Shown here: one piece after another, positions 28,271 to 29,119 of the stretch
Numbering within the stretch: position 1 is the stretch's first letter
How the letters are laid out: each line of letters opens with the position of its first letter
Assembly (NCBI RefSeq): GCF_009914755.1
Contig: NC_060935.1
Length of the DNA stretch: 64,000 nucleotides
Origin: the human T2T-CHM13v2.0 reference genome, Homo sapiens
Reading direction: 5' to 3' (one strand)
The notes under the pieces: generated by a model
The model's input: only the letters and a program-made list of their open reading frames with translations
Databases searched by the model: none
What the model was told of the DNA's origin: nothing
Made by a program: the position numbers and the translations under genes

Positions 28271-29119
28271 ATGAGCTGCGGCCGCCCCCCTCCCGACGTG
28301 GACGGCATGATCACCCTCAAGGTGGACAACCTGACCTACCGCACCTCTCCCGACAGCTTGAGGCGCGTGTTCGAGAAGTACGGGCGCGTGGGCGACGTGT
28401 ACATCCCGCGGGAGCCCCACACCAAGGCGCCCCGGGGCTTCGCTTTCGTCCGCTTTCACGACCGGCGCGACGCCCAAGACGCCGAGGCCGCCATGGACGG
28501 GGCGGAGCTGGACGGACGCGAGCTGCGGGTGCAGGTGGCGCGCTATGGCCGCCGGGACCTGCCCCGCAGCCGCCAGGGAGAGCCACGCGGCAGGTCCAGA
28601 GGCGGCGGCTACGGACGGCGGAGCCGCAGCTACGGGCGGCGGAGCCGCAGCCCCAGGCGGCGACACCGCAGCCGATCCCGGGGTCCCAGCTGCTCCAGGT
28701 CCCGCAGCCGATCTCGCTATAGGGGTTCTCGCTATAGCCGGTCTCCCTACAGCCGATCTCCTTACAGCCGGTCGCGCTACAGCCGCTCTCCCTACAGCAG
28801 ATCTCGCTACAGGGAATCTCGCTACGGCGGATCTCACTACAGCTCATCTGGTTACAGTAACTCTCGCTACAGCCGATATCACAGCAGCCGGTCTCACTCG
28901 AAGTCTGGGTCCTCCACTAGCTCTCGCTCTGCATCAACCTCCAAATCGAGCTCTGCGCGACGATCCAAGTCCTCCTCGGTCTCCAGGTCTCGCTCGCGGT
29001 CCAGGTCTTCATCTATGACCAGGAGTCCTCCCCGGGTATCCAAGAGGAAATCCAAGTCAAGGTCGCGATCCAAGAGGCCCCCCAAGTCTCCTGAAGAGGA
29101 AGGACAGATGTCCTCTTAA
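28271..29119 (+). CDS. SRSF8: Serine/arginine-rich splicing factor 8 (SRp46/SFRS2B), intronless SRSF2 retrogene, 282 aa
   Basis: gagccATG; RRM with LKVDNL and [10 protein letters not shown] domain; SRSF2-like termini MSx[16 protein letters not shown]; CpG island. Confidence 0.97.
28712..28891 (+). repeat. Coding 15-bp tandem repeat, 12 units (consensus tctcgctacagccga = SRYSR)
   Basis: Units read directly: tctcgctataggggt, tctcgctatagccgg, tctccctacagccga, tctccttacagccgg, ... Confidence 0.92.

What the first reader, a model, noticed from the sequence alone, without database searches (positions are those of the whole stretch)
28541..28570. SRSF8 naturally carries Arg at the SRSF2 P95 leukaemia-hotspot position
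Seen: residues 91-96 are RYGRRD (codon 95 = cgg at 28553-28555). Known: SRSF2 reads RYGRPPD, and P95H/L/R or in-frame deletions starting at P95 shift RNA preference from GGNG toward CCNG in myeloid neoplasms. SRSF8 has lost both prolines (one codon fewer plus a P-to-R change) and numbering is colinear up to that point. Inference: SRSF8 may be a natural altered-specificity 'P95R-like' paralog that imposes a distinct splicing programme when induced.
Basis: partly seen in the sequence, partly recalled or inferred. Interest (0 to 1): 0.8.

Follow-up and report, generated by a model that had tools for sequence, protein, structure and literature searches.

The report
SRSF8 lacks SRSF2's hotspot proline
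The primate-only splicing factor SRSF8, a processed copy of SRSF2, carries arginine where SRSF2 has the proline that is mutated in leukaemia, but whether this changes which RNA it binds has not been shown.

Summary
The SRSF8 reading frame (28271-29119, +) gives RYGRRD at residues 91-96, and codon 95 is CGG at 28553-28555. SRSF2, read from chr17 of the same genome, gives RYGRPPD and is colinear up to residue 94. At the DNA level CGC CCC CCG GAC became CGC CGG GAC.

The change is old and fixed. All three human SRSF8-family copies carry it, as do 6 of 6 informative non-human primate proteins (apes, an Old World monkey, New World monkeys). Among other homologues with a readable site, 110 of 112 close ones and 55 of 58 distant ones keep proline, and none has arginine.

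The functional inference is plausible but unproven. SRSF2 P95R and P95H shift exon choice to CCWG, and Pro95 contacts nucleotide 2 of the motif. Three points weigh against it:
- The linker just after residue 95 evolved almost neutrally (dN/dS 0.9-1.2, against 0.28 in the RRM).
- 16 other RRM residues also differ from SRSF2.
- Published top-10 Bind-n-Seq 5-mers of SRSF2 and SRSF8 share 7 of 10, all GCAG-led, and SRSF8 has no CCAG.

No paper found by 3 full-text searches on these terms links SRSF8 R95 to the hotspot. Public data could test the idea directly. The gene itself is already known.

The parts
28553..28555 (+). Codon 95 (CGG, Arg) of SRSF8, at the position of SRSF2 Pro95
   Evidence: aligned to P95 of the solved SRSF2 RRM
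28541..28570 (+). Residues 91-100, [10 protein letters not shown]: the C-terminal extension of the RRM and the start of the linker
   Evidence: The 10-residue string is identical in 6 of 9 SRSF8-family sequences that reach the site: human SRSF8, the chr7 copy, SRSF8BP, Aotus, Macaca and Gorilla. It varies in Pongo, Nomascus and Saimiri
28271..29119 (+). SRSF8 coding sequence, 282 codons plus stop, without intron
   Evidence: matches the hub's annotation
28319..28528 (+). RRM domain (residues 17-86)
   Evidence: Pfam RRM_1, E 1.6e-19. The solved SRp46 RRM 2dnm matches query residues 2-99 and is identical from residue 8 to 97; the ends carry non-native residues
28556..28627 (+). Linker, residues 96-119, fast-evolving
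   Evidence: dN/dS 0.88 against SRSF2 (1.16 and 1.20 for the two paralogous copies), compared with 0.28 for the RRM
28108..29126 (+). Stretch homologous to spliced SRSF2 mRNA (from 171 nt of 5' UTR to just past the stop). The SRSF2 intron is absent, so this is a processed retrocopy
   Evidence: blastn against the chr17 SRSF2 locus
28705..28895 (+). Tandem array, 15-nt period x 12.7 copies, encoding Tyr-containing S/R pentapeptides in the RS domain. Most of this stretch (28722-28870) has no SRSF2 match
27978..27988 (-). DUX4-like consensus site (TAACCTAATCA) at the annotated transcription start
   Evidence: It lies at the same offset in the chr7 copy and in SRSF8BP. The motif itself is recalled, not taken from a call
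27074..28085 (+). Upstream segment paralogous to the region upstream of KDM4F (8425-9479, 72% over 1093 nt). It ends about 22 bp before the SRSF2-derived part begins

Best explanation
SHOWN. SRSF8 is an intronless processed copy of SRSF2 that sits directly behind a KDM4-type upstream segment. Before its later duplications, and before New World and Old World primates split, a 3-base loss in a run of C plus a C>G change turned Pro95-Pro96 into a single Arg. This removed a proline that almost all other SRSF2 homologues keep. The RRM core stayed unchanged: both RNP motifs, the N-terminal GRPPPDV and the RYGR extension. INFERRED. In SRSF2, Pro95 touches the second nucleotide of the SSNG site. Replacing it with chemically different residues (H or R, weakly L) gives the same shift, so the loss of the proline itself seems to be the cause. 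SRSF8 therefore most likely still reads SSNG or GCAG-type sites, but with a modest bias like that of the P95 mutants: weaker on GGNG, equal or better on C/GCNG. I do not expect a new motif. Its strong RS domain would then turn that binding into exon inclusion wherever the gene is switched on. The stated confidence refers to this inferred bias. The descriptive part is near certain.
For: Sequence and DNA event. Retrocopy anatomy. Age and fixation: R95 is present in SRSF8, SRSF8BP and the chr7 copy, and in Aotus, Saimiri, Macaca, Nomascus, Pongo and Gorilla proteins, 6 of 6 informative. Proline is the rule elsewhere. In the set of 121 proteins, a regex read the site in 111: 103 P and 8 R, and all 8 R are primate SRSF8 family including the query. 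Of the 10 unread, 7 visibly have P. Among the 144 new proteins, 58 were read: 55 P, 2 L, 1 F, no R. Other SRSF2 retrocopies keep P (Saguinus P0039, manatee P0082). The RRM is under constraint (dN/dS 0.28; 18 non-synonymous and 18 synonymous differences). Mechanistic premise, from passages read: Pro95 contacts nucleotide 2, and mutants gain about 3.9-4.5-fold on C/GCWG (PMC7050488). P95R and P95H give a CCWG motif, and all three mutants raise EZH2 exon 9.5 (PMC6476956). RBNS top-10 lists: GGAG is in SRSF2's list (AGGAG) but not in SRSF8's. 7 of 10 SRSF8 5-mers contain GCWG, against 6 of 10 for SRSF2. Potent effector: SRSF8 was the strongest of 718 RBPs in a tethered exon-inclusion assay, mostly through its RS domain (PMC11389820).
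Against: The same RBNS lists share 7 of 10 5-mers. UCCAG is in SRSF2's top 10 but no CCAG 5-mer is in SRSF8's, and GGGGG is in SRSF8's. That is not the CCNG gain expected of a P95R-like protein. The lists are also GCAG-led for SRSF4 and SRSF10, so they may reflect a generic or technical preference and be a poor test. The linker has dN/dS 0.88-1.20, so PP>R may be one of many unconstrained changes. R95 is also kept in the truncated SRSF8BP and in a degenerate Saimiri copy, so its retention does not prove selection. The codon lies in a 62-73% GC stretch, where CpG decay may be slow (my inference). 16 other RRM residues differ, five of them in residues 48-54, and the extension is one residue shorter. 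Extrapolating from a point mutant is therefore unsafe. A review treats SRSF2 and SRSF8 as sharing SSNG and lists the SRSF8 motif as not determined (PMC9022966).
Confidence: 0.4

Rival explanations
1. Silent relic of drift. The PP>R change arose while the new retrocopy's linker was unconstrained and has no meaningful effect on RNA choice. SRSF8 binds SSNG like wild-type SRSF2. What sets SRSF8 apart is where it is expressed and its expanded, very potent RS domain.
For: Linker dN/dS is 0.88-1.20, against 0.28 for the RRM. 9 of 24 linker residues differ, so a change at 95 is unremarkable. The RBNS top-10 lists share 7 of 10 5-mers, and specificity scores are similar (IS 3.14 and 2.97). A review assumes shared SSNG. 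The RS domain carries most of the tethered activity, and it holds a 12.7-copy tandem array with no SRSF2 match. R95 is kept even in copies that look non-functional.
Against: In SRSF2, any of H, R or (weakly) L at this one position alters exon choice, and Pro95 contacts the RNA. Proline is kept in 110 of 112 close and 55 of 58 distant homologues, which argues that the residue matters. GGAG is missing from SRSF8's top 10.
Confidence: 0.35
2. Specificity differs, but not in the way of the P95 mutants. The combined changes (R95, the shorter extension, residues 48-50 and 53-54, V79E, M89V) reshape the cavity formed by the two termini and the loop between strands 2 and 3. This gives a preference that cannot be predicted from SRSF2 point mutants.
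For: 16 RRM substitutions, 14 of them on the family stem. Five cluster in residues 48-54 (EPH for DRY, AP for ES). SRSF8-only 5-mers are AGCUG, GGGGG and GCCGC; SRSF2-only are UCCAG, CAGUA and AGGAG. From my recollection of the Soret 1998 abstract, SRp46 did not show the same activity as SC35 in complementation assays (paper not held).
Against: The RNP1 and RNP2 motifs and both extensions apart from residue 95 are identical. 7 of 10 top 5-mers are shared.
Confidence: 0.15
3. SRSF8 is a decaying retrocopy whose protein does little, so R95 is irrelevant.
For: It is a retrocopy with pseudogene siblings (SRSF8BP is truncated at 234 aa). dN/dS is higher than expected for SRSF2, whose RRM protein sequence is almost unchanged from cow to frog to salmon.
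Against: An open frame of more than 220 aa is kept in several primates. RRM dN/dS is 0.28. SRSF8 phosphopeptides were detected after DUX4 induction (PMC10655719). The recombinant protein gives RBNS motifs. It was the strongest exon-inclusion activator of 718 RBPs tested.
Confidence: 0.05

Closest known systems
SRSF2 (SC35), wild type
   Same: Parent gene. 78% identity over the exon-1 product, and 78 of 94 RRM residues are identical. RNP motifs, N-terminal GRPPPDV and RYGR extension are the same. The RBNS lists are GCAG-led, with 7 of 10 top 5-mers shared.
   Different: SRSF2 has Pro95-Pro96, SRSF8 a single Arg. SRSF8 has no intron. Its linker is diverged at 9 of 24 residues. Its RS domain is expanded by a Tyr-containing tandem array. 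Its upstream region is of KDM4 type with a DUX4-like site.
SRSF2 P95R / P95H / P95L leukaemia mutants (and the recalled P95_R102del)
   Same: No proline after R94. P95R gives the same RYGRR string as SRSF8. Removing residues 95-102 from the SRSF2 sequence would also put an Arg after R94 (the deletion itself is recalled, not seen in a call).
   Different: The mutants differ from SRSF2 at one site only and keep Pro96 (the point mutants). SRSF8 also lacks Pro96 and carries 16 other RRM changes. The CCWG shift is shown for the mutants and not for SRSF8.
SRSF8BP pseudogene and the chr7 SRSF8-like copy
   Same: Same family, and the same [10 protein letters not shown]. The DUX4-like motif lies at the same offset.
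   Different: Both keep SRSF2-like V79 and M89 and have S66. SRSF8BP is truncated at 234 aa. The chr7 copy has an intact 293-aa frame.

Membership tests
SR protein family (definition recalled: N-terminal RRM plus a downstream RS domain of at least 50 aa with more than 40% R+S in consecutive RS/SR) | N-terminal RRM | tested here: met
   Pfam RRM_1, residues 17-86, E 1.6e-19. Solved structure 2dnm is named SRp46.
SR protein family | RS domain of at least 50 aa, more than 40% R+S, with RS/SR repeats | tested here: met
   Residues 116-282: 65% R+S and 51 RS/SR dipeptides. The best 50-aa window has 74%.
SR protein family | Acts in splicing | not testable with these tools
   Literature only. Strongest of 718 RBPs in a tethered exon-inclusion assay (PMC11389820 passages). 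S100 complementation in Soret 1998 is recalled; the paper is not held.
SRSF2-type RRM (SSNG reader with both termini forming the binding cavity) | Conserved RNP1/RNP2, N-terminal GRPPPDV and C-terminal RYGR | tested here: met
   These columns are invariant in alignment A1.
SRSF2-type RRM | Proline directly after RYGR (Pro95), which contacts nucleotide 2 | tested here: not met
   Arg in SRSF8. P in 110 of 112 close and 55 of 58 distant homologues. The contact is as summarised in PMC7050488.
SRSF2-type RRM | Binds SSNG | tested here: inconclusive
   The top-10 RBNS 5-mers contain GCAG, GCUG, GCCG and GGGG, which all fit SSNG. Only top-10 lists were seen, and SRSF4 and SRSF10 give similar lists.
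P95-mutant-like altered-specificity SRSF2 | No proline at 95 | tested here: met
P95-mutant-like altered-specificity SRSF2 | C/GCNG preferred over GGNG, relative to wild type | tested here: inconclusive
   GGAG is absent from SRSF8's top 10 and present in SRSF2's, which fits. CCAG is likewise absent from SRSF8's and present in SRSF2's, which does not fit.
P95-mutant-like altered-specificity SRSF2 | Promotes signature events such as EZH2 exon 9.5 | not testable with these tools
   No SRSF8 expression data were seen.
Processed retrogene | Parent's intron missing; homology starts in the parent's 5' UTR | tested here: met
   blastn: exon 1 and exon 2 of SRSF2 are adjacent in the window. Homology starts 171 nt before the SRSF2 ATG.
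Processed retrogene | Poly(A) remnant and target-site duplications | not tested
   The held SRSF2 locus gave no match beyond 29126. I did not look further.

The most novel reading that the evidence does not exclude
SRSF8 is a germline-encoded, switchable counterpart of the SRSF2 P95R leukaemia mutant. When turned on through its DUX4-type promoter in cleavage-stage embryos or FSHD muscle, or when raised in tumours, its proline-less RRM extension favours C/GCNG exons over GGNG exons. Its unusually strong RS domain then drives their inclusion. The result would be an 'SRSF2-mutant-like' splicing programme, including events such as the EZH2 poison exon, without any mutation.
Probability: 0.25. Interest if true: 0.75.

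Novelty: already known. Interest (0 to 1): 0.45.

Why it matters
SRSF2 Pro95 is one of the most frequent splicing-factor lesions in myeloid cancer, and its effect is a change in RNA preference. If a normal human gene already encodes that change, three things follow:
- The 'mutant' specificity would be part of normal primate biology, probably early-embryonic.
- SRSF8 induction could copy SRSF2-mutant splicing in FSHD muscle or in tumours without SRSF2 mutations.
- SRSF8 would be a ready-made natural control for structural work on how residue 95 sets C-versus-G choice.

The field currently assumes SRSF8 binds like SRSF2 (review PMC9022966; motif listed as not determined). The question is cheap to settle, because Bind-n-Seq data for both proteins are public. 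If the answer is no, the finding is an ordinary paralogue difference in a fast-evolving linker.

Tried and rejected
1. Primary papers could not be read because they are not held: Soret 1998 (PMC109076), Dominguez 2018 (PMC6062212), Kim 2015 (PMC4429920) and Daubner 2012 (PMC3252578). What I say about their content comes from other papers' summaries or is marked as recalled.

2. The RBNS preprint's main text (10.1101/201996) names SRSF2 and SRSF8 only in lists. The motif logos are in figures, which are not held.

3. Supplements of PMC10790492 held nothing on SRSF8. Full k-mer tables or position weight matrices there might bear on the CCNG/GGNG question.

4. The search for 'SRp46' by word start returned mostly sequence-archive accession numbers.

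5. My first count of residue 95 in distant homologues used pairwise local alignment. It was wrong, because gaps were misplaced around the one-residue indel. Reading the sequences showed this, and I replaced it with a regex count.

6. Earlier findings of this scan were not open.

8. I did not model structures. A prediction without RNA cannot report base preference, a solved SRp46 RRM already exists (2dnm), and the complex tool takes no RNA.

9. No primate DNA was available, so codon-level selection tests across species were not possible. Only human paralogues were used.

10. Of the 5 listed papers that hold SRSF8, SRSF2 and P95, I checked the SRSF8 passages of 4. None concerns residue 95. PMC10053845, with one SRSF8 mention, was not opened.

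Full report
**1. The observation**

Window 28271-29119 (+) translates without a stop into 282 residues, matching the annotated SRSF8 coding part.
- Residues 91-96 are RYGRRD, and codon 95 is cgg at 28553-28555.
- Pfam finds one RRM at residues 17-86 (E 1.6e-19).
- The best solved structure is the RRM of 'SRp46 splicing factor' (2dnm). Next come the SRSF2 RRM entries 2lea/2leb/2lec and 2kn4.
- phmmer aligns residues 1-95 without a gap and places SRSF8 R95 opposite SRSF2 P95.

I did not rely on memory for SRSF2. A search of the window's own genome found the chr17 locus. Its exon 1 reads RYGRPPDSHH at residues 91-100. The DNA alignment shows SRSF2 CGC CCC CCG GAC against SRSF8 CGC CGG GAC. That is three bases lost from a run of six C, plus one C>G change.

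**2. What the gene is**

SRSF2 homology starts at window 28108, which corresponds to 171 nt upstream of the SRSF2 ATG.
- It runs through exon 1 to 28632 and continues directly with exon 2 (28645-28722 and 28870-29126). The SRSF2 intron is absent, so this is a processed retrocopy.
- It forms a 62-73% GC stretch in AT-rich flanks.
- Most of the stretch without SRSF2 match (28722-28870) lies in a tandem array (28705-28895, period 15 nt, 12.7 copies). The array encodes Tyr-containing S/R pentapeptides.
- The RS region (residues 116-282) is 65% R+S, with 51 RS/SR dipeptides.

The ~1 kb just upstream (27074-28085) is not SRSF2-derived. It is 72% identical over 1093 nt to the region upstream of KDM4F (8425-9479). 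The retrocopy therefore sits about 22 bp behind a KDM4-type upstream segment.

A DUX4-type consensus site (motif recalled) lies at 27978-27988, at the annotated transcription start. Its counterpart is at 9369-9379.
- These are 2 matches in the window against 0.42 expected; 8 of 100 shuffles reach 2.
- The site is kept at the same offset in the two other human SRSF8-family copies.

**3. Age and spread of R95**

The genome holds two more family members.
- SRSF8BP lies just upstream of the window and has a frame truncated at 234 aa.
- A ~2.9 kb copy of the SRSF8BP unit lies on chr7, 96.5% identical to it, with an intact 293-aa frame.
- Both read [10 protein letters not shown].

A protein search returned named primate relatives. 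Their sequences show R after RYGR in all six informative species:
- Aotus nancymaae
- Saimiri boliviensis (a degenerate copy, RYGRRG)
- Macaca fascicularis
- Nomascus leucogenys
- Pongo pygmaeus
- Gorilla gorilla

A Piliocolobus entry leaves the frame before the site and says nothing. So the change predates the family's duplications and the split of New World and Old World primates.

**4. How unusual is it?**

- In the 121 proteins (query included), a regex read the site in 111: 103 have P and 8 have R. All 8 with R are the primate SRSF8 family.
- Of the 10 not read, 7 visibly have P. Two are fish two-RRM fusions, and one is the frameshifted Piliocolobus entry.
- So 110 of 112 proteins outside the SRSF8 family keep the proline, from insects and molluscs to mammals. 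Position 96 varies (P/T/S/A/N/D).
- An exhaustive search of cluster representatives added 144 proteins. The site could be read in 58: 55 P, 2 L, 1 F, no R.
- Other SRSF2 retrocopies (Saguinus, manatee) keep P.

The contrast is therefore real. A changed residue here is still not improbable in itself. 16 of 94 RRM residues and 9 of 24 linker residues differ between SRSF8 and SRSF2, and R is one of six one-step replacements of proline.

**5. Selection**

Nei-Gojobori estimates on the human copies give the following.

| Region | Comparison | dN/dS |
|---|---|---|
| RRM, codons 1-94 | SRSF8 vs SRSF2 | 0.28 (18 non-synonymous, 18 synonymous differences) |
| Linker, SRSF8 96-119 vs SRSF2 97-120 | SRSF8 vs SRSF2 | 0.88 |
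| Linker | chr7 copy vs SRSF2 | 1.16 |
| Linker | SRSF8BP vs SRSF2 | 1.20 |

- Residue 95 lies exactly where a constrained domain meets a nearly unconstrained linker.
- Of the 16 RRM replacements, 14 are shared by all three copies. These include a cluster at 48-50 (EPH for DRY) and 53-54 (AP for ES). V79E and M89V are SRSF8-only among the human copies.
- R95 is also kept in the truncated and degenerate copies, so its retention does not prove selection.

**6. Does it change RNA choice?**

The premise holds in what I read.
- A Genes & Development paper summarises that Pro95 contacts the second nucleotide of GGWG or C/GCWG.
- It reports wild-type Kd values of 0.22, 0.27 and 0.41 µM for UGGAGU, UCCAGU and UGCAGU.
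- It also reports that Pro95 mutants change the conformation of both RRM termini and gain 3.9-4.5-fold on C/GCWG (PMC7050488, Discussion passages).
- In K562 cells, P95H and P95R give a CCWG motif in included exons and P95L much less so. All three raise EZH2 exon 9.5 (PMC6476956, passages).

Chemically different replacements act alike, so loss of the proline looks causal. That makes a similar bias in SRSF8 plausible.

Bind-n-Seq sets exist for both proteins. I could see only the top-10 5-mers in Table S5 of PMC13142525.

| Protein | Top-10 RBNS 5-mers |
|---|---|
[quoted passage not shown] - Seven of ten are shared.
- GGAG drops out for SRSF8, which fits the idea. CCAG drops out too and GGGGG enters, which does not.
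- SRSF4 and SRSF10 are also GCAG-led, so these lists may be dominated by a generic signal.
- I read this as neutral to slightly negative.

**7. Function of the protein**

- SRSF8 phosphopeptides rise within 2 h of DUX4 induction in myoblasts (PMC10655719, passages).
- SRSF8 was the strongest of 718 RNA-binding proteins in a tethered exon-inclusion assay, and its RS domain carried most of the effect (PMC11389820, passages).
- A review lists its motif as not determined and assumes SSNG, like SRSF2 (PMC9022966).
- That SRSF8 mRNA is a DUX4 target is my recollection. Here it rests only on the motif and on the listing of 7 papers that hold both terms.

**8. Is the link in print?**

Three full-text searches addressed this:
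- SRSF8 + SRSF2 + P95: 6 papers, 5 listed
- SRSF8 + Pro95: 1 paper
- SRp46 + SRSF2 + P95: 0 papers

I read the SRSF8 passages of 4 of the 5 listed. None concerns residue 95. PMC10053845 was not opened. Subscription papers are not in the library, so this is not proof that the link is absent from print.

**9. Verdict**

The gene, its protein sequence, a solved RRM structure and in vitro binding data are all already public, so the object is 'already known'.

My estimates for the functional reading are:
- about 0.4 for a modest bias like that of the P95 mutants
- 0.35 for a silent drift relic
- 0.15 for a different kind of specificity change
- 0.05 for a protein that does little

The reading is untested, but public data could test it directly.

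Noticed in passing
L002 1501-2382 (own genome chr7:47215743-47216624 by locus arithmetic; segment about chr7:47213577-47216483): A third SRSF8-family copy with an intact 293-aa frame. It lies in a ~2.9 kb segment that is 96.5% identical to the SRSF8BP unit and 98.6% identical to window 1-854. It keeps the DUX4-like site and RYGRRD, whereas SRSF8BP itself is truncated at 234 aa. I did not check whether it is annotated or expressed.
   Followed up: partly
window 27074-28085 and 8425-9479: The SRSF8 upstream region is paralogous (72% over 1093 nt) to the region upstream of KDM4F. Both hold a DUX4-type consensus site (27978-27988 and 9369-9379, minus strand). The SRSF2-derived sequence starts about 22 bp after this segment ends, which suggests the retrocopy took over a KDM4-type promoter.
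   Followed up: partly
window 28705-28895 (also 28608-28673): Tandem arrays inside the RS domain: 15-nt period x 12.7 copies, and 21-nt period x 2-3 copies. They give 12 tyrosines in residues 140-215, and most of the stretch has no SRSF2 match. This is the domain reported as a very strong exon-inclusion activator.
   Followed up: partly
window 28556-28627: The linker between the RRM and the RS domain has dN/dS near 1 (0.88-1.20), against 0.28 in the RRM. The first five linker residues (DLPRS) are nevertheless the same in most primate copies.
   Followed up: yes
proteins P0130, P0237, P0212: Three unnamed SRSF2-like cluster representatives have Leu or Phe instead of the hotspot proline. P0130 reads RYGRLPNS and otherwise looks well conserved. 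P0237 looks degenerate. Their organisms are unknown.
   Followed up: no
Table S5 of PMC13142525: The top Bind-n-Seq 5-mers of SRSF2, SRSF4, SRSF8 and SRSF10 are all led by AGCAG/GCAGC. ITC, by contrast, ranks UGCAGU lowest of the three SRSF2 ligands quoted. The shared signal may be generic or technical.
   Followed up: no
proteins P0003, P0004, P0006, P0007: Primate entries mix SRSF8-type and SRSF8B-type diagnostic residues. Macaca has E79 with M89 and a B-type RS domain; Nomascus has V79 with V89. This hints at gene conversion between the paralogues, or at uncertain orthology.
   Followed up: no
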